The notes under the pieces: generated by a model
What the model was told of the DNA's origin: nothing
What the model saw: only the letters and a program-made list of their open reading frames with translations
Databases searched by the model: none
Virus record (IMG/VR): IMGVR_UViG_3300045988_139474
Span: 1-64,000 of that record
DNA: 64,000 nucleotides
DNA from: a virus
Strand: one strand, 5' to 3'
Translations under genes and position numbers: made by a program
In this document: positions 3,560-63,446 of the stretch, one piece after another
Numbering within the stretch: the first letter of the stretch is position 1
Layout: every line of letters starts with the position of its first letter

Positions 3560-3596
3560 TACCTTATATTCTCAACAACCAATCTTAATTTTTCGC
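3560..3596 (-). promoter_or_regulatory. class I phage promoter motif
   Basis: Minus strand GAAAAATTAAGATTGGTTGTTGAGAATATAAGG, ~55 nt upstream of the ligA ATG. Confidence 0.6.
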
Positions 3597-4078: not shown

Positions 4079-4480
4079 TTACTTCTTGCAAGCGTGTTCT
4101 AAGGCTTGTTTGTAAAGTGGGAATGTAGGTCTCACGGTTATTGAACCACCTTCAACGACCTCCCTGTAGGAGTTGTAGGTCACTAGCATGTCTGACGTGC
4201 AACCATTCTTAAACGCTAGGGTCAGATAATACTTGTTACCGTATCTTGTAGGCTCAGCCCTCTTGTACTTAACGACCGCTGATTGGGTCAGGGCAGTCAG
4301 TTTAGACTGAAAATGCTTTTCAGCGCGCTCACCCAAGAACCAAACAGTTGAGAAGACAATAATGAAAGAAGCTACTGCCCAGAGTGGCTTGTCTTCTATA
4401 AAATACAGTGCTGTAAAGCCAGCGGACAAGAAAGATAGGATAAAGAATACAAGCCACACTCCTTCAGGATTAAGAATCAT
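4079..4480 (-). CDS. N-terminally membrane-anchored protein, paralog of 3644..4054
   Basis: Starts MILNPEGVW. Shares KRAE...GC..DM.V...Y......G.SITV.P with 3644..4054. Confidence 0.75.
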   Translation of the reverse strand: MILNPEGVWLVFFILSFLSAGFTALYFIEDKPLWAVASFIIVFSTVWFLGERAEKHFQSKLTALTQSAVVKYKRAEPTRYGNKYYLTLAFKNGCTSDMLVTYNSYREVVEGGSITVRPTFPLYKQALEHACKK

Positions 4481-5359: not shown

Positions 5360-6697
5360 TTATTGACGGATTTTCACGGTAGCAGGTACAGGAGCGGCAG
5401 GCACTTCACGCACTACAACCTCTCGTACAACTTCTTTGACTACAACAGGTTGAGCATGAGCTTTAGCAACACCGCCAAATACATAGCTCAGGCCGATAGC
5501 TGCGCCGAAATTACGGCGTGTGTCGTAGTTCAGGCCTGCCTTAGATACCCAACGACCGCTTTCAGAGATATGGCTAACGCCGACAGCAACTGCGCCCTCA
5601 TGTTTGAAACCGCCGACACCCATACCAATGGAGGATTGACCTGGTTGGTAGGCTTGAGGGATGATAGCAATAGCATTCGCGCCTGCTACGCCAGCACGGG
5701 ATTCACGGCGTTGGTCGTGCAAAGCTTTCTCAAAGCCATCTTGACGCGCCAAGAAGCCCTCAGTCAGTTTCTTCAATTCAGCAATCTGAACGTCTTGAGT
5801 TGTATTCCAATTGGTTTGCTGGTTGTTGTACTGGGTAGCAATAGCTTGTACCGTTTCAATCTTGGCTGAATTCTGCTCAATACGGATGGTGTTGTTAGAC
5901 ACCTGACCCGCAACCGCGTACAGCTGAGAACCGTTCACGGCATCAGTTGAAGTTGAGGTTACTTGACCCGCAGCAACGTTTTGCAATTGACGTTCATTAC
6001 CTTTAGAACCGAAAGAAACGGCTGAAGATGGGCGATGACCCGCAAATTTGCCGTATGTTACGCCATTGACTTCTGAAGTTACGGTTTGGGTGACGGTGCT
6101 AGTTGTAGAACCAAAGCCGACAGCCACGTCTTGGTAGTTTTTAGCATGAGCGTTTGTACCGATAGCGGTTGAGAATCGGGATTCCGCAGTCGCACCGCTA
6201 CCAATAGCAGTTGAAGATTGACCTTTAGCAACAGAGGCTTGACCGATAGCGGTAGAATAACCGCCCAAAGCGTTTGCGTGTTGACCGACTGCTACTGATA
6301 CTTCACCCTCAGCTGTAGCGTGAGAACCGCCTGCGAATGAGGCCTTGCCCTTAGCTTGAGTGGCTTTACCGATAGCCGTTGCGCTGTTACCAGTCACGCG
6401 TGAACCGCTACCGATAGCAACGGTCATATTTTCCTCAGAATAGGCCTTAAAGCCTGCTACCACGTTCATGTTACCATAGCTTTCGGCTTGCTGACCGATT
6501 ACAGTTGAAACTTTACCGCCAATTTGGTTGTTTCGACCGATATTTACATGGGATTGACCGACAACGAATTGGTCGTGACCTAATACTACATGGCCTGAGC
6601 CATATACTTCAGTCTTGCCAGTAACATTGACTATGTTTTCGGCCAATACAGGCATTGAGACGGCTGCGATAGCCAATGCGATTACAGAGTGTTTCAT
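5360..6697 (-). CDS. YadA-like trimeric autotransporter adhesin
   Basis: Sec signal MKHSVIALAIAAVSMPVLA; repeated head motifs (STAIG..A.A); neck NVAAGQ..STDAVNGSQLYAV; coiled-coil stalk; C-terminal Gly/Ala-rich beta-barrel anchor (GLNYD...GLSYVF). An extra ~35-aa V/E/P-rich tail follows. Confidence 0.85.
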   Translation of the reverse strand: MKHSVIALAIAAVSMPVLAENIVNVTGKTEVYGSGHVVLGHDQFVVGQSHVNIGRNNQIGGKVSTVIGQQAESYGNMNVVAGFKAYSEENMTVAIGSGSRVTGNSATAIGKATQAKGKASFAGGSHATAEGEVSVAVGQHANALGGYSTAIGQASVAKGQSSTAIGSGATAESRFSTAIGTNAHAKNYQDVAVGFGSTTSTVTQTVTSEVNGVTYGKFAGHRPSSAVSFGSKGNERQLQNVAAGQVTSTSTDAVNGSQLYAVAGQVSNNTIRIEQNSAKIETVQAIATQYNNQQTNWNTTQDVQIAELKKLTEGFLARQDGFEKALHDQRRESRAGVAGANAIAIIPQAYQPGQSSIGMGVGGFKHEGAVAVGVSHISESGRWVSKAGLNYDTRRNFGAAIGLSYVFGGVAKAHAQPVVVKEVVREVVVREVPAAPVPATVKIRQ

Positions 6698-8004: not shown

Positions 8005-8034
8005 ATAGTCTCAATCGCCAATCTTAATTTTCTT
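8005..8034 (-). promoter_or_regulatory. class I phage promoter motif
   Basis: GAAAATTAAGATTGGCGATTGAGACTATACC, upstream of 7687..7968. Confidence 0.6.
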
Positions 8035-15249: not shown

Positions 15250-15280
15250 GTAAATCTCACTAGCCAATCTTAATTTTTAG
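15250..15280 (-). promoter_or_regulatory. class I phage promoter motif
   Basis: TAAAAATTAAGATTGGCTAGTGAGATTTACAAG, directly after terminator 15282..15316. Confidence 0.6.
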
Positions 15281-23469: not shown

Positions 23470-23498
23470 TATTATCTCACAGTCCAATCTTAATTTTC
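23470..23498 (-). promoter_or_regulatory. class I phage promoter motif (proximal copy of a tandem pair)
   Basis: GAAAATTAAGATTGGACTGTGAGATAATACC, upstream of 23085..23432. Confidence 0.6.
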
Positions 23499-23537: not shown

Positions 23538-23566
23538 TATTATCTCAACGGCCAATCTTAATTTTC
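23538..23566 (-). promoter_or_regulatory. class I phage promoter motif (distal copy of a tandem pair)
   Basis: GAAAATTAAGATTGGCCGTTGAGATAATACC, abutting the stop of 23566..23826. Confidence 0.6.
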
Positions 23567-26314: not shown

Positions 26315-26352
26315 TCATACTGTTATATCTCAATCACCAATCTTAATTTTTC
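26315..26352 (-). promoter_or_regulatory. class I phage promoter motif
   Basis: GAAAAATTAAGATTGGTGATTGAGATATAACAG, upstream of 26014..26286. Confidence 0.6.
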
Positions 26353-27381: not shown

Positions 27382-28026
27382 TTAATTCTTGAGTATGACG
27401 CGCACGACAGTCACATAGTTATCACTAGCTCCTGTTTCATCGTCATAGTCTCCGCCCAAATACTGGTACAGACTGAATTTGCGCGGTCGTCCGATAACTG
27501 GGTCATCATAAGTACAAGTGAAGTCCAAGTGAGACCACTCATAGATATGGCCGTGATCAGAGTCACTGCCTGAGAAAGTGTCTCGCTCAAGCGTGAATGT
27601 TCTGGGCGAGTCAGGAAGCATTACAATAAGCTTCTCAACCTCGTCAGGGATTCTGAAGTCAGGATAGCCCAAAGCCCTAATCCCCAGGCCTCCGTTCCAT
27701 CCTTGACCGCAGTATCTAACCAGTTTATTGCCCAGAAATACCTTTTCAACTGAGGGTGTTACGGGTTTTTGATTTGCTTCAGCCTTCGGGGCAGTTCTGC
27801 TCAACTGTAGTTGAATCCCCTTGTCGACTACGAAGCATTTTGAATTTGCGAGGCTTTGGAATATCAAATCCCCTTGCATATCATACCCTACAAAGAATAT
27901 TTGCTCATTAGGGCTCAAGCCTTGTCCGTCTTCAACTTGAACAACATAATATTTTGTACCTGATTTTGTTGTTTTCCATAATATTTCCTCTAATCCGAAT
28001 TTCAGAAATGCACTTGATAATCTCAT
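27382..28026 (-). CDS. hypothetical protein
   Basis: 214-aa ORF. N-terminal module is related to 23566..23826. Confidence 0.7.
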   Translation of the reverse strand: MRLSSAFLKFGLEEILWKTTKSGTKYYVVQVEDGQGLSPNEQIFFVGYDMQGDLIFQSLANSKCFVVDKGIQLQLSRTAPKAEANQKPVTPSVEKVFLGNKLVRYCGQGWNGGLGIRALGYPDFRIPDEVEKLIVMLPDSPRTFTLERDTFSGSDSDHGHIYEWSHLDFTCTYDDPVIGRPRKFSLYQYLGGDYDDETGASDNYVTVVRVILKN

Positions 28027-28043
28027 TTAACATTTTGGCGGTC

Positions 28044-28415
28044 TCACTCCTTAGGCCTTAAAGGATAAACAAGCGCGTCAAACTCTAGCTTGTCTTCTAT
28101 TGAGGCTGCGTGAACAATATCAATTATGTCAGTCTTGCCTTTGCCTGTAAAGTGGATAGGCATTTCCCACTCAGGCCACCATTCTGGTGTATCTGCAAAA
28201 GCAGCTGCCGTAAACTCTGGGACTTCTACAAAGCTGGAACCGTCCCAGTCATTATAGTCGTTCCAATTAGCCGTCCTCCGTATTGTCCCGCAAATAGTAG
28301 CGTGACAACCAGATAAAGGCCACTCGAATCGTACTTGGCAGGCATAAGTCTGAGTCGGTATGTCGATAAGCTCAAAAATCTTGAGAATGACGTAGGGTGA
28401 TTCATATTCAATCAT
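28044..28415 (-). CDS. hypothetical protein
   Basis: 123-aa ORF behind class I promoter 28440..28472. Confidence 0.7.
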   Translation of the reverse strand: MIEYESPYVILKIFELIDIPTQTYACQVRFEWPLSGCHATICGTIRRTANWNDYNDWDGSSFVEVPEFTAAAFADTPEWWPEWEMPIHFTGKGKTDIIDIVHAASIEDKLEFDALVYPLRPKE

Positions 28416-28439
28416 GCAGTCTCCTTAAGGGTGCTGTTA

Positions 28440-28472
28440 CCATAATATCTCAACAACCAATCTTAATTTTTA
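28440..28472 (-). promoter_or_regulatory. class I phage promoter motif
   Basis: TAAAAATTAAGATTGGTTGTTGAGATATTATGG. The TAA stop of 28463..29140 lies inside the motif. Confidence 0.6.
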
Positions 28473-29140
28473 CCTGATAATTCAGCCTTGACTAGCTCAT
28501 CAATCATCAAAGAATCATGAGGCTTCAGTTTATCAAGAATCCTCTTGTGCTCAGGCAATATAATCTTCTCAATCCTAGTCAAGTCAACAGTAGGGTTTTC
28601 AAGCAACATCGTTATATCGGCTAAATCGGGATAATCTCTGCCTGAGGATAGCTTCATTAGAATCAATCCCTCAATGCTAGCAATTCTAACTCCTGAATCT
28701 ACTTCGGCAGTCTTGTAGATATAGGATAAATATTTAACAGGCAAATTGATGAACTCAGGAGTCAATAAGTCAAGGGTAACTCCAGTTGATTTATGCTCAA
28801 TGTAATGACCGTTCAACACTTTGAACTTACTGCTTGCGCCAATCAATATTTTAGCCTTGCTAAGCCGATATTCAGACAAGAAGATAAAGTCAGCATCTTC
28901 GGTGCGCCTATTTCTGGCCCAGTAAGCAATCGCCATGCCTCCTACTAAAATCGGCTTATTCTTCCAGGGGATTCTTGAAAAGTCTTTGATAGCTTCCAGC
29001 ACCTCAGGGAATCCGTGAAGTGACTCAATCAAAGTCCTTTGACCAATGTTAGGGTATCTACATTTATTGGTGACTGTATTTACCCTGCCCATAGCCTCAT
29101 TAATCAGTTTAGTCCTAACCTTACGTTCAATCGGATTCAT
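28463..29140 (-). CDS. AbiEii/DUF1814-like nucleotidyltransferase-fold protein
   Basis: ILVGGMAIAYWARNRRTEDADFIFL fits the GG.A...R.T.D.DF signature of AbiEii-type NTases. 4-nt overlap with the upstream gene. Confidence 0.6.
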   Translation of the reverse strand: MNPIERKVRTKLINEAMGRVNTVTNKCRYPNIGQRTLIESLHGFPEVLEAIKDFSRIPWKNKPILVGGMAIAYWARNRRTEDADFIFLSEYRLSKAKILIGASSKFKVLNGHYIEHKSTGVTLDLLTPEFINLPVKYLSYIYKTAEVDSGVRIASIEGLILMKLSSGRDYPDLADITMLLENPTVDLTRIEKIILPEHKRILDKLKPHDSLMIDELVKAELSGKN

Positions 29141-29784
29141 AGCGATTGCCCTGACTCTTTAGTAATCCCAATCAAATAATTCTGGAATCCTGCGGAAGTT
29201 CCATACAGTTCATCACGCTGGTCATAAAAATCCGCTACTGACTCAAATTTGGTTGCTGACTTGGTCAGTTTATTCCTGTCAATCTTCCACACGGAATAGC
29301 CTAGATTAAACGCCATCTCACACAACTGAAGCCACATACCTGCGCCAGCTTGAGATTGCTCTTTGTCCGTTACAACAGAACCAGTTAGATTGAGAATATA
29401 GTTCAGCATAACATGTAGCGGAATACCTCGATACATATCATTTGACTTGTCTCTCCATACCAGCACCTGATTAGTAGGGACTTTAGGGAATCCCTTATAA
29501 GTGATGCCGTTAAGGGAGCGATAAGCTGCAAAATAGACAACTTCGCCCTCGCTATCAACTGCATAATAGGCCTTGTATTTGGTAGTAACTGGGGCATTGA
29601 TATACTTATCGACTTGATGGATATTAATACCAGAATTCACTTTGCCAACTACCTTGCCAAGCCCCTTATCATGAGCCATCTGAATTTGGTTCTTTACATG
29701 GTTGATTAACCTGTCAGGAATCTCACCAACATACTGAGGGCTCATTTCGTTTAATCCTTGAATTATTTTGGACACCTTATTCAT
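29137..29784 (-). CDS. hypothetical protein, possibly GNAT-like
   Basis: 215 aa. EQSQAGAGMWLQL loosely fits the acetyl-CoA Q/R-x-x-G-x-G/A motif. Co-transcribed with the NTase. Confidence 0.35.
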   Translation of the reverse strand: MNKVSKIIQGLNEMSPQYVGEIPDRLINHVKNQIQMAHDKGLGKVVGKVNSGINIHQVDKYINAPVTTKYKAYYAVDSEGEVVYFAAYRSLNGITYKGFPKVPTNQVLVWRDKSNDMYRGIPLHVMLNYILNLTGSVVTDKEQSQAGAGMWLQLCEMAFNLGYSVWKIDRNKLTKSATKFESVADFYDQRDELYGTSAGFQNYLIGITKESGQSL

Positions 29785-29797
29785 CTGCTACTCCCAA

Positions 29798-30481
29798 TTA
29801 CTTAGCTGAAACCGCAGCACCGCATAATACAACACTAGGATTGCCCGAAACTCGATATTTCATCAGATTCCGATACACTGGTGTAATATTAGGCATACTG
29901 TAATGCTCCTTGATAATACCGTTGAACAGGTACTTACCCATTGTATTAGGGATAGCCACACCGTTCTTGATAGTAGCAGGCTTATTACAATCTACCTCAG
30001 CATAAGTGATGACTTTGAGCTCATTGTATTTAGCAGCCAGTTTCTTTGAATAATCCTCTAAGGCCTTCCAACGGCCTGTATTCATCGAATGATTCTGAGG
30101 TACAATGTTAGTCATCAAAAAGGACTCACTAACAGTTGATAACTCAGACGAATTGCTACTAGCAGCCATATGTCCACGGTCATAGCCAGTTCTGGTGTAA
30201 TCTTTCGGTTGAGCTGAATACCAGCCTACACGATAATCGGCGCGGAAATTGTTAGTGCGTGGCGCATGATTCTTCGCTTCATAGCTAGACAGGGATTCAT
30301 AGGTGACTACAGGAATCTTGAGCTTTTTGTTAAAATAGGACACATATTCCTTATTGCACAACTTCACGACATTCAGGTTGTCGGTAATCTTCACATAATT
30401 ATCTGACTCAACGCATAATTCAGCAGCATTAGCAGACAACGCGAACATCAGCATAGTCATCGGTAACAATTTACATTTCAT
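29798..30481 (-). CDS. secreted DNA/RNA non-specific endonuclease (DRGH beta-beta-alpha-Me family)
   Basis: Signal peptide MKCKLLPMTMLMFALSANA; catalytic YDRGHMAAS and downstream NIVPQNHSMNTGRWKALE, as in NucA/EndoG-type nucleases. Confidence 0.85.
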   Translation of the reverse strand: MKCKLLPMTMLMFALSANAAELCVESDNYVKITDNLNVVKLCNKEYVSYFNKKLKIPVVTYESLSSYEAKNHAPRTNNFRADYRVGWYSAQPKDYTRTGYDRGHMAASSNSSELSTVSESFLMTNIVPQNHSMNTGRWKALEDYSKKLAAKYNELKVITYAEVDCNKPATIKNGVAIPNTMGKYLFNGIIKEHYSMPNITPVYRNLMKYRVSGNPSVVLCGAAVSAK

Positions 30482-30519
30482 AGGTCTAACTCCTTTAATT
30501 TGGGTGAAAGGTGCTGTTA

Positions 30520-30552
30520 CTGTAATATCGCAGCACCCAATCTTAATATCTA
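30520..30552 (-). promoter_or_regulatory. class I phage promoter motif (variant)
   Basis: GATATTAAGATTGGGTGCTGCGATATTACAG, upstream of the nuclease gene. Confidence 0.55.
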
Positions 30553-31227
30553 CCAGCGCCAGAGGAAGCTCAGAGGGATTACATTGGGATAGCCCAATTC
30601 ATCTTCACACTTGCACTTAACATACCAAGACAAACACTCGTTGTCGAAGGTAAAGCAAAAGACGGCTTGATAACGGCTGTAGTCAATATCAAACAGGCCT
30701 TTTATCTTCTCCCAAGCTTCTGCTTCGTCATAAGCCTCAGGCAATATCGACTTATCAAACAAGTTGCGATATTTCCACAAGTTGATAGCATTCGGCAGCT
30801 TCAAGTCCTCAGGGCTTGAGTAGATAACCAGCTGGTCGGAAAACTTAGCCAGAATCTGTACTGTCGTCAAATACAATTCCTGCATCTCGACCGACCGCGT
30901 GGAAGCAAAATCGCATAGCTCAATCAACTCCTCAGGAGGAATCCGAATGCCATTGGGCGTTCTACTCAAGAATGTATAAGCATACATGTCATGCTGATTG
31001 TCTCCGTACATCCGCCCATGAATCCGCTTCACGGCCATCTTGGACTTCTTGTGAAGCTTGAACTGCTTGCCGACCAATTCAATCGGGATAAACAGCTTAG
31101 TCTCGCTTTCGGACAATACGCCCCTATTGTTGACTACAATATTGCTGAAGTAGTCGGTGCTATTGTACTGAGTTACCCCTCGACACAAAATCTTGTTTTC
31201 CAGACAACGATAATGGATCAATCCCAT
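30550..31227 (-). CDS. hypothetical protein immediately downstream of the beta-prime gene
   Basis: 225-aa ORF. Its start abuts the beta-prime stop (TAAATG). Confidence 0.7.
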   Translation of the reverse strand: MGLIHYRCLENKILCRGVTQYNSTDYFSNIVVNNRGVLSESETKLFIPIELVGKQFKLHKKSKMAVKRIHGRMYGDNQHDMYAYTFLSRTPNGIRIPPEELIELCDFASTRSVEMQELYLTTVQILAKFSDQLVIYSSPEDLKLPNAINLWKYRNLFDKSILPEAYDEAEAWEKIKGLFDIDYSRYQAVFCFTFDNECLSWYVKCKCEDELGYPNVIPLSFLWRW

Positions 31228-47772: not shown

Positions 47773-48516
47773 TCAGTTCCTTTCATAAGGTTTTGCTTGA
47801 AAAACATAAACGATTGATTCTAACCAATCAACAATCTCAGGATTCAACGGCATAGTTTTGAATCCGCATCTGTATAGCATTGCGGAATCGTAGATTTCAA
47901 TAGGCAATCGGACAGGCAAAGTCTCAAAGCCTGCTTGAGCGGTTTTCATCTTATCAACAATTGCTTTTGAATTATGATAAGCCTGTTTCGTGCTGAATGG
48001 GACGGTCGGTTGCTCATAGCCGATGTCGTGACCAAACAATTCCTTATAGACGGCGTACATGTCGACACCTAAGGAATACGCACGCGCAATATAGACAGCT
48101 ACTGTATCTTGATTAGGACTCAGCGCAATCATCCCTTGAACATTCTTCGTACTGGCTGCTGCAATACAAGTAGCACCTTTCAAATTCCAGAAGTCGTCAA
48201 GCTGCGACACCTCTTTCCATTTCACATAAATATATGGCTTCTCAGCTGTAATCAATTTCAAGTTAAGGCAGACAATAGCAATCAGAAAAGTAAACGCAAT
48301 GCTGAAAGCAGCCCAATCACCCTTTAGGAGCGCGTTACAGGCCGTGAACGCAGAAATGATTGAAAACGATATGGCTGCTGGTTGTTCCCAGATAGCCGAC
48401 CAATCAATCCGCGTTTTCACGATACGCATTGACTTGAGTGAGACAGCATGGTTGAAAGTCTCAGCTGTAAGCAGCTTTCCAGTCTGCACGTCAAAAATAA
48501 ATTTGTTGATAGACAT
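47773..48516 (-). CDS. membrane protein
   Basis: 247 aa with two central hydrophobic helices (PAAISFSIISAFTACNALL / FSIAFTFLIAIVCLNL). Confidence 0.7.
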   Translation of the reverse strand: MSINKFIFDVQTGKLLTAETFNHAVSLKSMRIVKTRIDWSAIWEQPAAISFSIISAFTACNALLKGDWAAFSIAFTFLIAIVCLNLKLITAEKPYIYVKWKEVSQLDDFWNLKGATCIAAASTKNVQGMIALSPNQDTVAVYIARAYSLGVDMYAVYKELFGHDIGYEQPTVPFSTKQAYHNSKAIVDKMKTAQAGFETLPVRLPIEIYDSAMLYRCGFKTMPLNPEIVDWLESIVYVFQAKPYERN

Positions 48517-48563
48517 TTTGAGTTTCCTTTTTCACTGGGTCTAGTGCGAATTTTACTTAATGG

Positions 48564-49388
48564 TTATCTGAGAACATGATATCTTTTTATCTGCTTCAGA
48601 AATTCGATTTGTTCGGTTGTAGGCTTGAGTAATCCCATGAAAGCGGCACCGCTGTAGTAAAAATGCGAGTTGTGCCTACGGTCTCTTAAGGAATACTTGT
48701 CAAGAAGTACATAATAAAACACAGGATTAAAGTTTTTATCGAAAATACGCAATTTAGCTACATAGTCTCTTAACTCGATGGTGACTGGGAATAAAAGCCT
48801 ATCAGTAAAAGCACCCTTTTCAGCTACTTCAAATGTTCTTGAGTAATAAAACTTTTCGTCTGCAGTTAGCTTTAAAATGTCTTCGCCTGACCTGCTGAAA
48901 ACACAAATGCCATAATTGCCCAAGGCAGGCATTTGTGTTAAGTCTTTAGTGACTTCAAAAATCCTTATGTGAGTCTTGCCCTTAGTCGGCCAAGAAGTAT
49001 TCCTATGACTTTCATCCGCTTTAATAATGAGACCATTATAAAAGTTTTGAATAGAAAGGACTGAATAAGGGTCATCCGTCATATTTTGTATGAAGAATGC
49101 GCGTGGTTTCATTAGGCCTTGTATTAAATATTGATAATTGATATTAGCTGTAAGCTCAGGGTGTTTTTCTCTAATCTTATTAAAGAATTTAAGGTGCTTG
49201 CCGTGAACTGTTAAATCAAAAAATCCTCCTGAATAGTTTTCAGGCAAGTCTTTAGAATCAACTGTTGACCTGTCAAACTCAAAATTTTTTAATCTGGCGT
49301 AATCTACATCCAATTCGTATATTCTGGAAAGAACCCATGGAGTGTCTCTATCCGCAGCATCAACGCCGTCTATCTCAATACCATACAT
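48564..49388 (-). CDS. hypothetical protein (AT-rich module, gene 2)
   Basis: 274-aa ORF. Sampled 60-nt lines are 32-37% GC. 19-nt overlap with gene 1. Confidence 0.7.
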   Translation of the reverse strand: MYGIEIDGVDAADRDTPWVLSRIYELDVDYARLKNFEFDRSTVDSKDLPENYSGGFFDLTVHGKHLKFFNKIREKHPELTANINYQYLIQGLMKPRAFFIQNMTDDPYSVLSIQNFYNGLIIKADESHRNTSWPTKGKTHIRIFEVTKDLTQMPALGNYGICVFSRSGEDILKLTADEKFYYSRTFEVAEKGAFTDRLLFPVTIELRDYVAKLRIFDKNFNPVFYYVLLDKYSLRDRRHNSHFYYSGAAFMGLLKPTTEQIEFLKQIKRYHVLR

Positions 49389-49900
49389 CCTATTACCCCT
49401 CTTGATACCATATATGTGTCTGCCTGAACTACTCTTGAGCCTGTAACAGGTATTTTCGGGTAATCCTCAAGGATTTCTCTTTTTTGACCTGTATCAAAAA
49501 TTATATTGTATTCTGGATTGTTCCAATTAGCTCTATTGTAATTTGTAGGCAATAACACTTGCTGAGGGTGAACGAATCCTCCAAAATCGGTTTTCCCTAT
49601 CTCGTTGCTGTTAACATTAGCAAGTTTTAGTATCTTGAGCCCTTGCCCCTCGACATTCAGCACAAGATAATCCTGTATGCTATCATATTTCTCATTTAGC
49701 TGAAACGGATTAGAATATACAATGAACTTCTCACCAAATTCTATTTCAGGAAGATTTGGGACGATACCGACATCAATGACCTTCGGATACCCCCCCCGCA
49801 ACATTACAGATGAGACCGTAACAATATGCTCAGTTATTGATTTGATATCAAATTGATTTCTGAATTCTAAGTCAGAAAGATACAAGCCGTAGCCTGGCAT
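49370..49900 (-). CDS. hypothetical protein (AT-rich module, gene 1)
   Basis: 176-aa ORF preceded by a 456-nt non-coding structured region, not by a class I promoter. Confidence 0.7.
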   Translation of the reverse strand: MPGYGLYLSDLEFRNQFDIKSITEHIVTVSSVMLRGGYPKVIDVGIVPNLPEIEFGEKFIVYSNPFQLNEKYDSIQDYLVLNVEGQGLKILKLANVNSNEIGKTDFGGFVHPQQVLLPTNYNRANWNNPEYNIIFDTGQKREILEDYPKIPVTGSRVVQADTYMVSRGVIGCMVLR

Positions 49901-49951
49901 ATCTTTTCCTTTCTTAAAGTTTGAGATTGATTGAAAAAGATTTCCTCTTTA

Positions 49952-50058
49952 GGAATCGCCCTAACCCTGTTGCTAGCAGAAGCGTTGGAGAGTGAACGCT
50001 GACCTAGCATACTGCATGGAGGTAGGAGAGGTAATTGATACAAGGTCAAAGCGATTCC
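49952..50058. ncRNA. candidate structured RNA element (three nested helices); strand unresolved
   Basis: GGAATCGC 49952-59 pairs with GCGATTCC 50051-58. Inside it, TGCTAG 49971-76 pairs with CTAGCA 50004-09. Inside that, AGCGTT 49981-86 pairs with AACGCT 49995-50000. Confidence 0.3.
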
Positions 50059-50356
50059 GAAAAAGAACTGGTTACCATTATCCAGCGTCACTGAGCTTTC
50101 GCCATGACGGATTTTCTATACATTAAGTCTGGAGTGATAGTAGGCTTTATTTTACTTTGCGCCTACCAGACAAAGTTCAGGAGTCAACTTGCTCAGCACA
50201 GCCAGCTAGAAAATAGGCTAAACTAACAGGCTGCACTCAACAGGTTTAACTGTTGAAAAACAAAAGGAACTTAATATGCTAAAACAAGGCCAATATTACC
50301 ATTTATGTCTCCCGCATATTGGCGGACGGGATATGCAACCCCTTGCAGAAAATCAA

Positions 50357-50980
50357 TCAGCTACAGATTTCAGTCATCATAGCTTTATACAGCTGGTTTC
50401 TTTTGCGAACAGATTCAATTGAGTCGTTCATAAATACAGGATGTTTGTCGACAATTATTTCCGCAATTTCGCTCGGAGTTTTCGAACAAAATTCATAGTC
50501 AATCATCCTAGTATGACCGTCAACTACCAGATAGCTCTTGCCTTCTCCCCATGCAGACCATTTAAAGAAGTCACAATCTAGTCCGTCTAACAAATAGGCA
50601 TTGTCCTTGTCTTCAATGTAAAAGTATGTTATGCCTCTTCTCCCTCTAATAGGCAGATGCATCACAAAATACGGATTTACGCATGAATCTAACAAGGCCT
50701 TTGGCTCTACTGGAACTTTCTTGTAAGAAGCTCCCTCCATAAATACTACACCGACGAAGACGATAAGCAAACTCAGGCCAATTATTAGCAGCAACATAGC
50801 TTCAGGCGCAAATTGGGTTTTGGTAAAATACCAGCCTATCAAAACACAAGCTGCCATAATAACCCCAGCCCCTATGACCCCAGTATTGAGTACATACGTG
50901 TGCCATCTCGTTGAGGATTTGCTGTAATACGCTCGAAACTCGCCTGTTTGACGGTTCATTTTCAGTAGCGTATCAGTCAT
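50357..50980 (-). CDS. membrane protein
   Basis: Start moved to ATG 50980 (MTDTLLKMNRQ; SD GGAG; 8-nt overlap). Two hydrophobic helices, then a soluble domain. Confidence 0.7.
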   Translation of the reverse strand: MTDTLLKMNRQTGEFRAYYSKSSTRWHTYVLNTGVIGAGVIMAACVLIGWYFTKTQFAPEAMLLLIIGLSLLIVFVGVVFMEGASYKKVPVEPKALLDSCVNPYFVMHLPIRGRRGITYFYIEDKDNAYLLDGLDCDFFKWSAWGEGKSYLVVDGHTRMIDYEFCSKTPSEIAEIIVDKHPVFMNDSIESVRKRNQLYKAMMTEICS

Positions 50981-51563
50981 TGAGTGACTCCATGTATTTT
51001 GCAAACTCTTCTGAGTCGGAGCTTTGAGCAGGCTCAATCGCGTCATAGTATTTTGAAGTGCCCTCTACAGTCACGGACAATTCTTTGATAAACTCGTCAA
51101 CATCCATGTTAACATCACGGAAATTGTTGATTGAGATACCGGCAGAAATACGGCTTCGCTCAAATTTCAATTCGTCAATCTTCGCAAGGATTGAAGATTT
51201 TGATTCCTCCCAAGAGTCAATCTGGGATTGAATGCGTGCCAAGAAGTCTTGTTTCTTACCTAACAACACTTTAATGCGGAATGCTTCACGCGCTTTGCGA
51301 GGGTCTTTAGATTCAGCTGCGCGCAACTCTTGCTCCAGTCCTTTCAAGATACTTGTATGCTGCTTCACTTGTTCTTGAGTATCCGACTCAACGGACTTGA
51401 GTTGGGCTTGCTCGATACAAATGCTCTTGAGATGTTTATTCAGCTTGTCGATTTCACCCTGAATATACTGTTTCGCTGCGGAAGAATCAGAGCTAATCAT
51501 GTCCTTAACAGCACCGTTAGTTTTAGAAGTGAAAATGGCTTTTACAGCTTTAAATACGTTCAT
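50973..51563 (-). CDS. coiled-coil protein, possibly PspA/IM30-like
   Basis: N-terminus MNVFKAVKAIFTSKTNGAVKDM resembles PspA [22 protein letters not shown]. The rest is long heptad-rich helix. Confidence 0.4.
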   Translation of the reverse strand: MNVFKAVKAIFTSKTNGAVKDMISSDSSAAKQYIQGEIDKLNKHLKSICIEQAQLKSVESDTQEQVKQHTSILKGLEQELRAAESKDPRKAREAFRIKVLLGKKQDFLARIQSQIDSWEESKSSILAKIDELKFERSRISAGISINNFRDVNMDVDEFIKELSVTVEGTSKYYDAIEPAQSSDSEEFAKYMESLND

Positions 51564-51599: not shown

Positions 51600-51631
51600 T
51601 TTAAATCTCGCTCACCAATTTTAATTTTTAA
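51600..51631 (-). promoter_or_regulatory. class I phage promoter motif
   Basis: TAAAAATTAAAATTGGTGAGCGAGATTTAAAG, upstream of 50973..51563. Confidence 0.55.
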
Positions 51632-51857: not shown

Positions 51858-51935
51858 TGGTGGGTGCCGCAGGACTCGAACCTGTCTGCCTACCGTTTAT
51901 GAGACGGCTGCTCATACCTCATGAGCTTGACACCC
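51858..51935 (-). tRNA. tRNA with anticodon CAT (elongator Met or Ile2), CCA encoded
   Basis: Minus strand folds as a cloverleaf: GGGTGTC AA GCTC ATGAGGTAT GAGC A GCCGT CTCATAA ACGGT AGGCAG ACAGG TTCGAGT CCTGC GGCACCC A CCA. 7-bp acceptor, T-loop TTCGAGT. One A-C mismatch in the T stem, and A instead of U at position 8. Confidence 0.8.
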
Positions 51936-52435: not shown

Positions 52436-52466
52436 CTGATATTCCATCAGCCAATCTTAATTTTTA
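52436..52466 (-). promoter_or_regulatory. class I phage promoter motif
   Basis: TAAAAATTAAGATTGGCTGATGGAATATCAGC, upstream of 52029..52406. Confidence 0.6.
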
Positions 52467-54590: not shown

Positions 54591-54765
54591 ATTTGCAATA
54601 TGAATCTTGTAACGGTTGGGATTCCGTACATAAAGACAAGATTTTGACTAAAAATTTCCTTGCGAAAACAATCGACTATCCACGAAATATACGATTTCAA
54701 TGTCATAGATGTGATACACAATATACACACAAGTATTATATATCTAATAATTAATAAAACAGACA
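54591..54765 (+). repeat. ~170-bp repeat unit U1 (plus orientation)
   Basis: TTGCAATATGAATCTTGTAACGGTTGGGATTCCGTACATAAAG..GATTTTGACTAAAAATTTCC..CTATCCACGAAATATACGATTTCAATGTCATAGATGTGATAC, then AT-rich TATTATATATCTAAT. Confidence 0.85.
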
Positions 54766-54968: not shown

Positions 54969-55170
54969 CATGAATCTTGAGGCGTGAGCTACTGATTTGA
55001 AAACTGAAGCCTGTAGGGAACAGGAATCGGAACATAAATACAGGATTTTGGCTAAAAATTTCCCTGATTTATTAGAAACTTATCCACGAAATATACGATT
55101 TCAATGTCATAGATGTGATACAAATAGATAACACACAAGTATATATAGATTATAGAAAGAAAACAGACAC
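54969..55170 (+). repeat. ~170-bp repeat unit U2 (plus orientation)
   Basis: ..GGAATCGGAACATAAATACAGGATTTTGGCTAAAAATTTCCCTGATTTATTAGAAACTTATCCACGAAATATACGATTTCAATGTCATAGATGTGATAC, then TATATATAGATTAT. Confidence 0.85.
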
Positions 55171-61044: not shown

Positions 61045-61212
61045 ATTAATTTATTAGTTATATAATACCTGTGGTGTTGATATTGTATCACATCTATGAC
61101 ATTGAAATCGTATATTTCGTGGATAACTCGTTGTAACTCAATAGAAATTTTTAGACAAAATCTTGGACTTATGTACGGAATCTTGGCGGGTACAGAATCT
61201 AGATTGCAGTTT
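61045..61212 (-). repeat. ~170-bp repeat unit U4 (minus orientation)
   Basis: Reverse complement: ..GATTCCGTACATAAGTCCAAGATTTTGTCTAAAAATTTC..TTATCCACGAAATATACGATTTCAATGTCATAGATGTGATAC, then GGTATTATATAACTAAT. Confidence 0.85.
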
Positions 61213-61424
61213 CTGTATCCCAGCAGCAAGATTCATCAGTCAATCATTGATTTCCCTCTAATTGCTCAAGCAAGGATTTCAGTTTGTTCCCTTCCTGCTG
61301 ACTCAGGCTCCATACGGTCGGAGAAAGCCTCAGCAGTCTCAAATTTCTGTTTTTCATGCTCATGGCTGTAAAGTCTCAATTCAGGGCTTGGTTGAGTGTT
61401 GAAGAGGGTGTCAGGGTTGTTATT

Positions 61425-61592
61425 CTTCTATTAGATAATATATAATCTGTGGTTGTGTATTTGTATCACATCTATGACATTGAAATCGTATATTTCGTGG
61501 ATAAGTTTCTAATAAATCAGGGGAATTTTTAGACAAAATCCTGTCTTTATGTTCCGATTCCCAGCCGTTACAAGATTCATATTGCAAATCAG
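61425..61592 (-). repeat. ~170-bp repeat unit U5 (minus orientation)
   Basis: Reverse complement: TTGCAATATGAATCTTGTAACGGCTGGGAATCGGAACATAAAGACAGGATTTTGTCTAAAAATTCCCCTGATTTATTAGAAACTTATCCACGAAATATACGATTTCAATGTCATAGATGTGATAC. Confidence 0.85.
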
Positions 61593-61594
61593 CA

Positions 61595-61631
61595 ATAAAA
61601 AAGCCCTGCTAGCATGAAACTAACAGGGCTG
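61595..61631 (-). terminator. rho-independent terminator
   Basis: AGCCCTG-loop-CAGGGCT followed by TTTTTTATTG on the minus strand, after 61653..61943. Confidence 0.75.
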
Positions 61632-61652
61632 GGGTTGGGGTATGACTGTAGG

Positions 61653-61943
61653 CTAACGGAACAGCTCAGGGTGAGCTATCTCAAGGTCGATACAAGTGTT
61701 GCGGTAGTCAGGGTCAATGAAGGCATCTACTGACTCATTGCCCTCTTCGTCCACGATTGTCCGTTTCAAGCCTAAGACTGCTGAGTGTGTATTATTCATG
61801 TAATACTCTTCCATTACAATCAGCTTCTCACCATCACGGGATTCCACTTGGTCTTGAGAAAACTCGCAGTCAAGATTGCCGGCATATCGCTCTAACTCGG
61901 AAAGCTCGCATTCTACCATCACGTCATCTAATTGCTCATCCAT
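61653..61943 (-). CDS. small, very acidic protein
   Basis: 96 aa, roughly a quarter Asp/Glu. Followed by terminator 61595..61631. Confidence 0.65.
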   Translation of the reverse strand: MDEQLDDVMVECELSELERYAGNLDCEFSQDQVESRDGEKLIVMEEYYMNNTHSAVLGLKRTIVDEEGNESVDAFIDPDYRNTCIDLEIAHPELFR

Positions 61944-63419: not shown

Positions 63420-63446
63420 ATATCTCAACCGCCAATCTTAATTTTC
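63420..63446 (-). promoter_or_regulatory. class I phage promoter motif
   Basis: GAAAATTAAGATTGGCGGTTGAGATATCAGC, upstream of 63157..63375. Confidence 0.6.

What the first reader, a model, noticed from the sequence alone, without database searches (positions are those of the whole stretch)
48564..50356. AT-rich two-gene module behind a 456-nt structured non-coding region, with no phage promoter motif
Genes 49370..49900 and 48564..49388 overlap by 19 nt and match nothing I recognise. Sampled 60-nt lines are 32-37% GC, against roughly 38-50% in sampled flanking lines. Upstream on the coding strand lie 456 nt without a credible ORF and without the class I or class II motifs. This stretch contains a clean nested set of helices: 8 bp 49952-59 with 50051-58, 6 bp 49971-76 with 50004-09, and 6 bp 49981-86 with 49995-50000. 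Two further hairpins are present (50140-45 with 50161-66; 50238-43 with 50250-55). A large structured RNA followed by two unknown proteins in a compositionally foreign island resembles accessory (defence, anti-defence or exclusion) cassettes that use a non-coding RNA component. It could also be a long regulatory leader.
Basis: partly seen in the sequence, partly recalled or inferred. Interest (0 to 1): 0.65.

Follow-up and report, generated by a model that had tools for sequence, protein, structure and literature searches.

The report
Conserved phage RNA beside a mobile gene pair
The 456-nt gap holds a real, conserved, folded RNA of about 425 nt that matches no known family. It belongs to the core genome of a small group of uncultured large phages, whereas the two AT-rich genes behind it are a separate, dispensable, horizontally moving cassette of unknown function.

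Summary
Both ORFs, their 19-nt overlap, the low GC (37.5%, the lowest stretch of that size in the window) and all five helices are there.

The interpretation of one RNA-plus-protein cassette does not hold.
- Thirteen distinct copies of the non-coding region were recovered from related phage contigs at 82-99% identity.
- These copies are far better conserved than third codon positions of neighbouring genes.
- They fold into about 14 helices, 99% paired, with 9 pairs changed on both sides and about 13 G-U pairs that work only on the gene strand.
- They match no Rfam family.

The RNA and the genes separate freely. Two close relatives lack the two genes and keep the RNA. One lineage keeps the RNA beside a decayed cassette. 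One carries a 35%-identical allele. Four other phage contigs carry the gene pair with no room for the RNA.

The RNA always lies downstream of a tRNA-Met, between variable gene slots. My best reading is a new phage structured RNA acting on its own, possibly a stable processed ncRNA. A cis-acting leader or processing element is the main rival. The two proteins remain functionally blank: no family, PDB or fold match, and the AF2 models were poor.

The parts
49931..50354 (-). Conserved structured RNA element (about 424 nt). This is the block shared by all 13 distinct homologues, whatever flanks it.
   Evidence: Alignments A5 and A10. The 5' limit is set by L003/L015/L019, where the upstream context differs. 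The 3' limit is set by L004/L007, where the downstream context differs. Mapping to window coordinates.
50110..50354 (-). 5' domain, a multi-helix junction. Helices: 50323-50312/50301-50289; 50255-50250/50243-50238; 50237-50225/50207-50195; 50190-50186/50177-50173; 50171-50161/50145-50127.
   Evidence: RNAalifold. Changes on both sides occur in 50237-25/50207-195 (3 pairs) and in the GUAGGC/GCCUAC hairpin (G-C to U-A in 5 sequences). The closing helix is ambiguous: GAUUUUCUG 50354-46 with UAGAAAAUC 50118-10, or GGUUGCAUAUCC 50340-29 with GGAUAAUGGUAACC 50083-70. Both are invariant.
50068..50109 (-). Two central hairpins: 50109-50101/50096-50086 (GAAA loop in most copies) and CUGG-AUAAUGGUAA-CCAG.
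   Evidence: Pair 278/297 changes U-A to C-G in 5 sequences.
49943..50067 (-). 3' domain. A helix of about 27 bp (50067-50040 / 49970-49943) is topped by a three-way junction with helices 50009-50004/49976-49971 and 50000-49997/49984-49981.
Evidence: 4 pairs with changes on both sides and 5 G-U pairs in the window copy. It is the longest inverted repeat in the 64 kb.
49931..49941 (-). U-run AUCUUUUUCAA at the 3' edge of the conserved block. The presence/absence breakpoint of the cassette lies directly after it.
   Evidence: It lies 4 nt from a weak A-U/G-U stem base, so it is not a canonical intrinsic terminator, and the scan did not flag it.
49370..49900 (-). ORF1 of the mobile two-gene cassette (176 aa, predicted all-beta, function unknown).
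   Evidence: AF2 gave pLDDT 50. Foldseek gave no match.
48564..49388 (-). ORF2 of the cassette (274 aa, function unknown). It is translationally coupled to ORF1: 19-nt overlap, with a conserved AGAGG shortly upstream of its ATG.
   Evidence: AF2 gave pLDDT 33. No PDB sequence match.
48529..49930 (-). Presence/absence segment. It is replaced by about 8 nt (CCGAC...) in relatives L004 and L007.
   Evidence: blastn break points 49931-49935 / 48528. Junction alignment.
47773..48516 (-). 247-aa membrane-type gene. It directly follows the RNA in cassette-less relatives and precedes the cassette in L002.
50357..51563 (-). Two upstream genes (229 aa and 196 aa) that are absent from relatives L003 and L015. 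This is a second variable slot, on the 5' side of the RNA.
51858..51935 (-). tRNA-Met, conserved upstream of the RNA in every relative checked. It lies 205 nt upstream in L015 and about 1.5 kb upstream in the window.
51615..51628 (-). Nearest upstream copy (one mismatch) of the promoter-like motif. The next copy is at 52451-52464, and there is none downstream until 28470.

Best explanation
Two independent features sit side by side.

(A) Window 49931-50354 (- strand) is a new, about 425-nt structured RNA and a core element of this phage lineage. It is transcribed with the genes as part of the long - strand transcript that also carries tRNA-Met (inferred). It folds into a 5' multi-helix domain, two central hairpins and a 3' domain built on a helix of about 27 bp (shown by conservation and covariation). 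It acts as an RNA in its own right. My committed reading is a stable RNA processed out of the polycistronic transcript, which works through its many conserved unpaired nucleotides on a protein or RNA partner during infection (inferred). In genomic setting it resembles the phage large RNAs GOLLD and ROOL, but it is not a member of either family.

(B) ORF1 and ORF2 (48564-49900) form a translationally coupled, low-GC accessory cassette of unknown function. It moves horizontally among large myoviruses and is dispensable here. It merely occupies the variable slot just 3' of the RNA.
For: RNA under selection:
- 13 distinct homologues were found.
- Identity to the window is 87/88/94/97% for L003/L006/L001/L004. 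Third codon positions of seven neighbouring genes are only 74/69/78/91% identical.
- 86% of paired columns are invariant. Outside four variable blocks, 79% of unpaired columns are invariant.
- Indels break all reading frames.

Structure:
- 107-115 consensus pairs are 99% paired.
- 9 pairs (32 cells) change on both sides, against 5.3 (10.8) in shuffles (0 of 500 shuffles reach the observed value) and 0-1 in slid controls. These pairs lie in four helices.
- G-U pairs are frequent, and the fold z-score is -4.4 against -2.2, which points to the - strand.
- The element is the most structured of 290 windows.

Independence from the cassette:
- RNA without genes: L004, L007.
- RNA beside a decayed cassette: L006 and L012 come from two different IMG/VR metagenome datasets and are 99.93% identical. 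L019-L024 are further cases.
- RNA beside a 35%-identical allele: L003, L015.
- Genes without RNA: L002, L011, L014, L018.

Cassette is foreign and mobile:
- It has the lowest GC in the window.
- It is 80% identical at the nucleotide level in L002, a phage whose backbone does not align with the window.
- The SD-ATG overlap is conserved down to 23% protein identity.

Setting: tRNA-Met lies upstream in all relatives. GOLLD and ROOL are phage RNAs often found near tRNA islands (PMC12286853).
Against: - There are no expression or end-mapping data. No promoter motif, sigma-70-like site or canonical terminator bounds the element, so a discrete RNA species is inferred, not shown.
- All homologues are at least 82% identical, and each domain falls into about two haplotypes that recombine. 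The changes on both sides therefore represent few independent events.
- Ten of the 14 helices show no change on both sides: eight never vary and two vary on one side only.
- The long-range closing helix is ambiguous.
- The element ends 20-35 nt before the next start codon, as a 5' leader would.
- It has no Rfam match and is shorter than ROOL or GOLLD.
- Nothing at all is known about what the two proteins do.
Confidence: 0.45

Rival explanations
1. Cis-acting intercistronic leader. The folded region stays part of the polycistronic mRNA and controls the downstream block of nucleotide-metabolism and replication genes. It could act as an RNase III processing site in the 27-bp helix, as a 5' stabiliser after cleavage, or by antitermination or translational control of whichever gene comes next.
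For: - It is on the same strand as the genes, with no promoter or terminator of its own.
- It ends 20-35 nt from the next RBS in every context.
- The long, nearly continuous helix has the length typical of RNase III substrates (established knowledge from T7 early mRNA and the lambda N leader).
- In the MFE fold the U-run can pair with the purine-rich RBS of ORF1.
- It is retained whatever the immediate downstream gene is, as expected if it serves the whole operon.
Against: - About 425 nt with some 14 helices and strongly conserved unpaired nucleotides is far more than a processing or stabiliser hairpin needs.
- No similar element occurs at other gene junctions of the window.
- The sequence between the element and the next start codon is not conserved across contexts.
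Confidence: 0.3
2. One reading: the RNA and the two proteins form one accessory (defence, anti-defence or exclusion) system with an RNA component.
For: - They are adjacent and on the same strand in the window and in seven relatives.
- The island is compositionally foreign.
- The cassette evolves fast: a 35% allele sits in an 86% backbone.
Against: - RNA and cassette occur without each other in both directions.
- The RNA stays intact where the cassette is a pseudogene.
- The RNA has backbone GC (42.6%), not island GC.
- There are no PADLOC, RT, nuclease or toxin signatures, and no tandem repeats.
Confidence: 0.05
3. DNA-level element. The conserved block is a replication origin, a recombination or homology arm that mediates cassette exchange, or a protein-binding region, and the predicted RNA folds are incidental.
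For: - It sits between two indel-prone slots.
- It is itself mosaic through recombination between its two domains.
- Gene conversion could inflate its conservation.
Against: - Changes on both sides preserve pairing, and many G-U pairs work only on one strand.
- The fold z-score is strand-asymmetric.
- There are no iterons, no AT-rich unwinding tract and no repeats.
- Cumulative GC skew shows no inflection here.
- No repeated motif of the T4 promoter-plus-stem-loop type flanks the cassette.
Confidence: 0.07
4. Unannotated or decaying protein-coding sequence, either small proteins or a pseudogene.
For: Mechanical ORFs exist: 74 aa on the - strand and 40-48 aa on the + strand. A stop-free stretch of about 33 codons recurs.
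Against: - That stretch has no conserved start codon, and its middle is read in different frames in different relatives.
- Indels not divisible by three occur throughout.
- Conservation shows no codon periodicity and exceeds that of third codon positions.
Confidence: 0.03

Closest known systems
GOLLD and ROOL large ornate RNAs of phages and prophages
   Same: Phage-encoded, several hundred nt, many helices, function unknown, and often near tRNA genes. One GOLLD lies downstream of a Met-tRNA (PMC12286853). Here tRNA-Met lies 0.2-1.5 kb upstream in every relative.
   Different: There is no match to either Rfam model even at E <= 10. The element is shorter (about 425 nt; that paper says many GOLLD RNAs exceed 800 nt, and ROOL is also longer from my own knowledge). 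It is known only from one narrow phage lineage. Oligomerisation is untested.
Stable RNAs species 1 and 2 (rnaC, rnaD) in the phage T4 tRNA cluster (own knowledge, not checked here)
   Same: Non-tRNA stable RNAs that are co-transcribed with phage tRNAs and processed out of the precursor. Their function is still unknown.
   Different: The T4 RNAs are about 120-140 nt and lie within the tRNA cluster. This element is three times larger, and in most genomes one to three protein genes separate it from the tRNA.
RNase III processing hairpins between genes of phage T7 early mRNA and in the lambda N leader (own knowledge)
   Same: An intercistronic long imperfect helix on the coding strand, with no promoter or terminator of its own.
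   Different: Those sites are single hairpins of about 50-60 nt and recur at several junctions. Here a unique 425-nt multi-domain fold has conserved loops, and no second copy exists in 64 kb.
Hyperplastic regions and PeSL (early promoter plus stem-loop) cassette shuffling in T4-type phages (PMC2839356, PMC4122927)
   Same: The cassette behaves as such regions do. It is a non-essential ORFan gene pair that is inserted, deleted, replaced and moved between otherwise near-identical phage genomes. In L002 the gene order is permuted relative to the 247-aa neighbour.
   Different: No repeated motif of a sigma-70 promoter plus terminator stem-loop flanks the cassette. The conserved neighbour is a 425-nt unique RNA, not a 50-70-bp repeated element.

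Membership tests
GOLLD / ROOL (and other Rfam large RNAs: OLE, HEARO, raiA) | Significant match to the family covariance model | tested here: not met
   Rfam 15 at gathering threshold over the whole window gave only tRNA. Permissive E <= 10 scans of the element in the window, L016 and L006 gave no hit to any of these families.
GOLLD / ROOL | Encoded in phages or prophages, often near tRNA genes | tested here: met
   The context is a phage (RNAP beta'-like, PolA, primase, dUTPase). tRNA-Met lies upstream in all relatives.
GOLLD / ROOL | Length: many GOLLD RNAs exceed 800 nt (PMC12286853); ROOL about 580 nt (my own knowledge) | tested here: not met
   The conserved block is about 424 nt.
GOLLD / ROOL | RNA-only homo-oligomeric cage | not testable with these tools
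   Needs in vitro transcription plus SEC or cryo-EM.
RNA-component defence or toxin-antitoxin cassettes (type III TA ToxIN-like, retron, CRISPR) | Obligate co-occurrence of the RNA locus with its protein genes | tested here: not met
   RNA without genes: L004, L007. Genes without RNA: L002, L011, L014, L018.
RNA-component defence or toxin-antitoxin cassettes | Tandem RNA repeats (ToxI, CRISPR) or a reverse transcriptase (retron), or a match to a known defence protein | tested here: not met
   No tandem repeats. No RT or other Pfam domain. No PADLOC hit.
PeSL-type mobile regulatory cassette (T4-type hyperplastic regions) | Repeated sigma-70-like promoter plus terminator stem-loop flanking the variable genes | tested here: not met
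   No direct repeat at the cassette borders. There is no excess of promoter-like or terminator-like sites, and none at the borders.
RNase III processing site | Roughly 20 bp or more of near-continuous double-stranded RNA on the transcript | tested here: met
   Helix 50067-50040 / 49970-49943 has 27 pairs with one 1x1 mismatch.
RNase III processing site | Cleavage by RNase III in vivo or in vitro | not testable with these tools
   Needs end mapping in wild-type and rnc hosts, or in vitro cleavage.
tRNA / tmRNA-like element | Cloverleaf or tRNA-like domain detected | tested here: not met
   ARAGORN found nothing in 49850-50450, including at a relaxed 80% threshold.

The most novel reading that the evidence does not exclude
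The element founds a new class of large, two-domain, trans-acting phage RNA. It could be a ribozyme, an RNA-only assembly like GOLLD or ROOL, or a decoy or scaffold for a host or phage factor. It is made from the tRNA-containing transcript and is kept as core equipment while the protein genes around it come and go.
Probability: 0.3. Interest if true: 0.7.

Novelty: new member of a known kind. Interest (0 to 1): 0.45.

Why it matters
Phage-encoded large structured RNAs are few, and none has a known function. A further family with a clear two-domain fold, a fixed position downstream of tRNA-Met and natural domain-swap recombinants would be a compact new test case, at about 425 nt, for what such RNAs do.

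The case also shows that an RNA next to ORFan genes in a phage variable region need not belong to them. Comparison with close relatives separated the two cleanly.

The ORF1/ORF2 pair is a rare, phage-only, horizontally moving operon of completely unknown function. In one phage group it sits among baseplate and tail genes; in this group it sits among early genes, where it is often lost.

Tried and rejected
- INPHARED phage genomes: megablast and blastn of the region and of 14 kb of backbone found no match. The nearest cultured phages share only 34% identity in RNAP beta'.
- GTDB genomes: two exact-pattern scans gave nothing.
- One metagenome hit (L010) was a chance 24-mer.
- IMG/VR holds only three contigs of the lineage.
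- Rfam at permissive thresholds returned only noise, such as snoRNA-like hits in the upstream coding end.
- A relaxed ARAGORN run found no tRNA-like domain.
- Sigma-70 and terminator scans were at background level.
- No paralogue of the RNA exists in the window or in the loci that carry only the cassette.
- Proteins: Pfam, PHROGs, PADLOC, NCBIfam and PDB profile searches were empty. A full HMMER profile scan of 1.8 billion representatives added one homologue.
- AF2 of ORF2 (pLDDT 33) and ORF1 (pLDDT 50) was too poor. Foldseek gave TM below 0.25 and was disregarded.
- A coding reading of the 456 nt was rejected.
- The U-run as an intrinsic terminator was rejected: it lies 4 nt from a weak stem.
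- The MFE helix AUAUUAAGU/ACUUAAUGU was rejected because type-B sequences break it.
- A TnpB guide-RNA (omega RNA) origin was considered because TnpB genes occur nearby in L015 and L022. It was rejected because they are lineage-specific insertions more than 0.9 kb away and absent from most genomes.
Full report
**Context.** The window is part of an uncultured large phage. All genes lie on the - strand. They include a multisubunit-type RNA polymerase beta'-like protein, a family A DNA polymerase, a helicase, a primase-like protein, thymidylate synthase, dUTPase and an NAD-ligase. Nothing in the INPHARED phage collection matches at the DNA level. The closest cultured phages share only 34% identity in the beta'-like protein. 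Related metagenomic contigs reach 142-152 kb.

**Observation check.**
- The two ORFs, 49370..49900 (176 aa) and 48564..49388 (274 aa), exist and overlap by 19 nt.
- They have no hit in Pfam, PHROGs, PADLOC or NCBIfam.
- The pair is 37.5% GC. That is the lowest 1337-nt stretch of the whole 64 kb (mean 44.3%, sd 2.0).
- The 456 nt upstream (49901-50356) carry only a mechanical 74-aa GTG ORF.
- The window's recurrent motif AAAATTAAGATTGG is absent there. It has 9 exact copies and 13 with one mismatch or fewer, all on the - strand. The nearest copies are at 51615-51628 and 52451-52464, and the next downstream is at 28470.
- As RNA the - strand folds with z = -4.4 against -2.2 for the + strand.
- In a scan of 290 overlapping 440-nt windows of the - strand this element ranked first (z = -5.2; genome mean -0.87, sd 1.4).
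- Its long helix is the longest inverted repeat in the window.

**Relatives.** The 274-aa protein has only three homologues among 5.8 billion proteins. A full profile scan added one more. A profile of ORF1 found fifteen. Their contigs, together with exact-pattern DNA scans of IMG/VR and metagenomes, gave 13 distinct copies of the non-coding region. Two GTDB genome scans found none.

**The non-coding region is a selected, structured RNA.**
- Its identity to the window copy is 87, 88, 94 and 97% in L003, L006, L001 and L004. Third codon positions of seven neighbouring backbone genes are only 74, 69, 78 and 91% identical in the same comparisons.
- Indels not divisible by three occur throughout. 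The only recurrent stop-free stretch has no conserved start and is read in different frames in different copies. It is not coding.
- RNAalifold gives 107-115 pairs in about 14 helices.
- On the 13-sequence alignment 99.4% of cells are paired. Nine pairs (32 cells) keep pairing through changes on both sides, against 5.3 (10.8) in column shuffles (0 of 500 reach the observed value) and 0-1 when partners are slid.
- These changes lie in four helices, given here in window coordinates: 50237-25/50207-195; the GUAGGC/GCCUAC hairpin 50166-61/50145-40; 50109-01/50096-86; and the 27-pair helix 50067-40/49970-43.
- About 13 columns are G-U pairs, which would be A-C mismatches on the other strand. The RNA is therefore the - strand, the same as the genes.
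- 86% of paired columns are invariant. Outside four variable blocks, 79% of unpaired columns are invariant. That pattern fits a conserved core with variable periphery.
- Caveats: all copies are at least 82% identical. Each domain exists in about two haplotypes that recombine (L024 is type A/B; L020 and L021 are type B/A), so the compensatory changes reflect few independent events. Eight helices never vary and two vary on one side only. The long-range closing helix is ambiguous between two invariant, mutually crossing pairings.
- The conserved block is 50354-49931. Its 5' edge is defined by three different upstream contexts. Its 3' edge is defined by relatives that continue differently after AUCUUUUUCAA.

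**No known family matches.** Rfam 15 finds only the tRNA-Met at 51858-51935. Permissive scans (E <= 10) of three copies give no GOLLD, ROOL, OLE, HEARO, intron, riboswitch or ribozyme hit. ARAGORN finds no tRNA-like or tmRNA-like domain. There are no tandem repeats and no paralogue in the window.

**The RNA and the two genes are separable.**
- L004 (IMG/VR) and L007 (an independent ENA assembly) are 95-98% identical to the window on both sides. They lack 49930-48529 entirely. The RNA is followed after about 8 nt by the RBS of the 247-aa gene, and the junction is the same in both.
- L006 and L012 come from two different IMG/VR metagenome datasets and are 99.93% identical. They share a 2-nt deletion in ORF1 and a split ORF2, yet keep an intact RNA with compensated helices.
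- L019-L023 have truncated ORF1. L024 keeps only an ORF1 remnant and has lost ORF2 and the 247-aa gene.
- L003 and L015 carry at the same site an allele only 34-36% identical in protein, while the RNA and backbone are 86-87% identical in DNA.
- Conversely, L002 carries an 80%-identical cassette next to a DNA ligase gene. Its backbone does not align with the window. The cassette there is preceded, not followed, by a 247-aa-like gene.
- L011, L014 and L018 are T4-like contigs that carry gp5, tail-tube and, in L011 and L014, gp25 and gp2 genes, plus portal, gp23 and sheath in L011. They carry distant versions among baseplate and tail genes, with 16-45 nt upstream.
- nhmmer finds no copy of the RNA in those loci.
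- The slot on the 5' side of the RNA is also variable. The 229-aa and 196-aa genes of the window are absent from L003 and L015, where the RNA starts 205 nt after tRNA-Met and a 55-aa ORF.
- The constant backbone is therefore tRNA-Met, the 55-aa ORF, the RNA, the 99-aa gene and onward. The protein genes in between come and go.

**The cassette.**
- ORF1 and ORF2 always occur together with the same 19-nt overlap. A conserved AGAGG lies shortly before ORF2's ATG, even at 23-25% protein identity. This indicates translational coupling (inference).
- ORF2 has conserved N- and C-termini and a variable middle.
- AF2 models were poor: pLDDT 33 for ORF2 and 50 for ORF1, the latter all-beta. Foldseek and PDB profile searches gave nothing usable.
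- Function is unknown. Low GC, horizontal transfer, allelic replacement and frequent decay mark it as a dispensable accessory operon.
- This is the behaviour described for hyperplastic regions of T4-type phages (PMC2839356, PMC4122927). No PeSL-like repeated promoter and stem-loop flanks it here.

**How the RNA most likely works.**
- Shown: it is a conserved, strand-specific, multi-helix RNA fold. It is part of the core genome and independent of its neighbours.
- Inferred: it is transcribed within the long - strand unit that begins at the motif copies at 51628 or 52464 and contains tRNA-Met. There is no further motif until 28470.
- I commit, at about 45%, to a stable RNA processed from this transcript and acting through its conserved unpaired nucleotides on a partner. 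This is comparable in setting to GOLLD and ROOL, which are phage RNAs of unknown function often near tRNA islands (one GOLLD lies downstream of Met-tRNA; PMC12286853), and to the T4 stable RNAs of the tRNA cluster (own knowledge). It fails the membership test for GOLLD and ROOL: no model match, and a shorter length.
- The main rival, at about 30%, is a cis-acting leader or processing element for the downstream replication-gene block. The support is threefold: the element has no promoter or terminator of its own; it ends 20-35 nt before the next start codon; and its 27-pair helix is long enough for RNase III. Its size, its unique occurrence and its conserved loops argue against a mere processing hairpin.

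**Verdict.** The RNA is a new family of a known kind, a phage structured non-coding RNA, so far confined to one narrow uncultured lineage. Interest is moderate. The finding is worth a covariance-model search of larger collections and transcript mapping, which would decide between a stable ncRNA and a leader.

Noticed in passing
window 54677-54718 (+), 55081-55122 (+), 61084-61125 (-), 61462-61503 (-): A 42-nt sequence (TATCCACGAAATATACGATTTCAATGTCATAGATGTGATACA) occurs four times without a mismatch, twice on each strand. It is part of a repeated intergenic element of about 130 nt with its own hairpins. The copies at 61.1-61.5 kb lie in long gaps without ORFs.
   Followed up: partly
window 3579-3592, 8018-8031, 15264-15277, 23484-23497, 23552-23565, 26337-26350, 28457-28470, 52451-52464, 63432-63445 (all -): The motif AAAATTAAGATTGG has 9 exact copies and 13 with one mismatch or fewer, all on the gene strand and mostly in short intergenic gaps. 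It is probably a phage promoter class. No copy lies between 51615 and 28470, which implies a very long transcription unit.
   Followed up: partly
window 61361-61800 (-): This stretch has the second most negative folding z-score of the - strand (-4.8). It is intergenic and contains a strong hairpin followed by a U-run, plus one copy of the repeated element. It may be a second non-coding feature.
   Followed up: partly
L015:7757-8635 and L022:1-281: TnpB-type (OrfB_IS605 / Cas12f-like) genes are inserted in two relatives within a few kb upstream of the RNA. They are absent at that position in the window and most other relatives, so these are lineage-specific transposon insertions in a phage.
   Followed up: no
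alignment A10 (window 49922-50362 and homologues): The RNA is mosaic. Its 5' and 3' domains each have two main sequence types, and natural recombinants exist (L024 is A/B; L020 and L021 are B/A). The recombination point falls between the domains.
   Followed up: yes
L006:about 4080-4090 and about 4350-4360 (A10 columns about 93-101 and 362-369): In type-B copies the variable linker UUUGAAGU is perfectly complementary to ACUUCAAA in the apical part of the 3' domain. The domain recombinants lack the match. It could be a loop-loop contact or chance (read).
   Followed up: no
window 5360-6697 (-): A phage gene encodes a YadA-like trimeric autotransporter adhesin, with head repeats, stalk and membrane anchor.
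   Followed up: no
window 50973-51563 and 50357-51046 (-): The two genes upstream of the RNA encode a coiled-coil protein (with weak SMC/LmuB-like hits) and a membrane protein. They overlap by 74 nt and are missing as a block from L003 and L015, so they form another accessory cassette.
   Followed up: partly
L002:9172-11328: The large subunit of ribonucleotide reductase in this other cassette-carrying phage has a weak Pfam Intein_splicing hit between two Ribonuc_red_lgC hits, which suggests an intein.
   Followed up: no
window 27382-31227 (-): Five consecutive ORFs of 214-227 aa lie just upstream of the RNA polymerase beta'-like gene. Whether they are paralogues or split polymerase subunits was not examined.
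   Followed up: no
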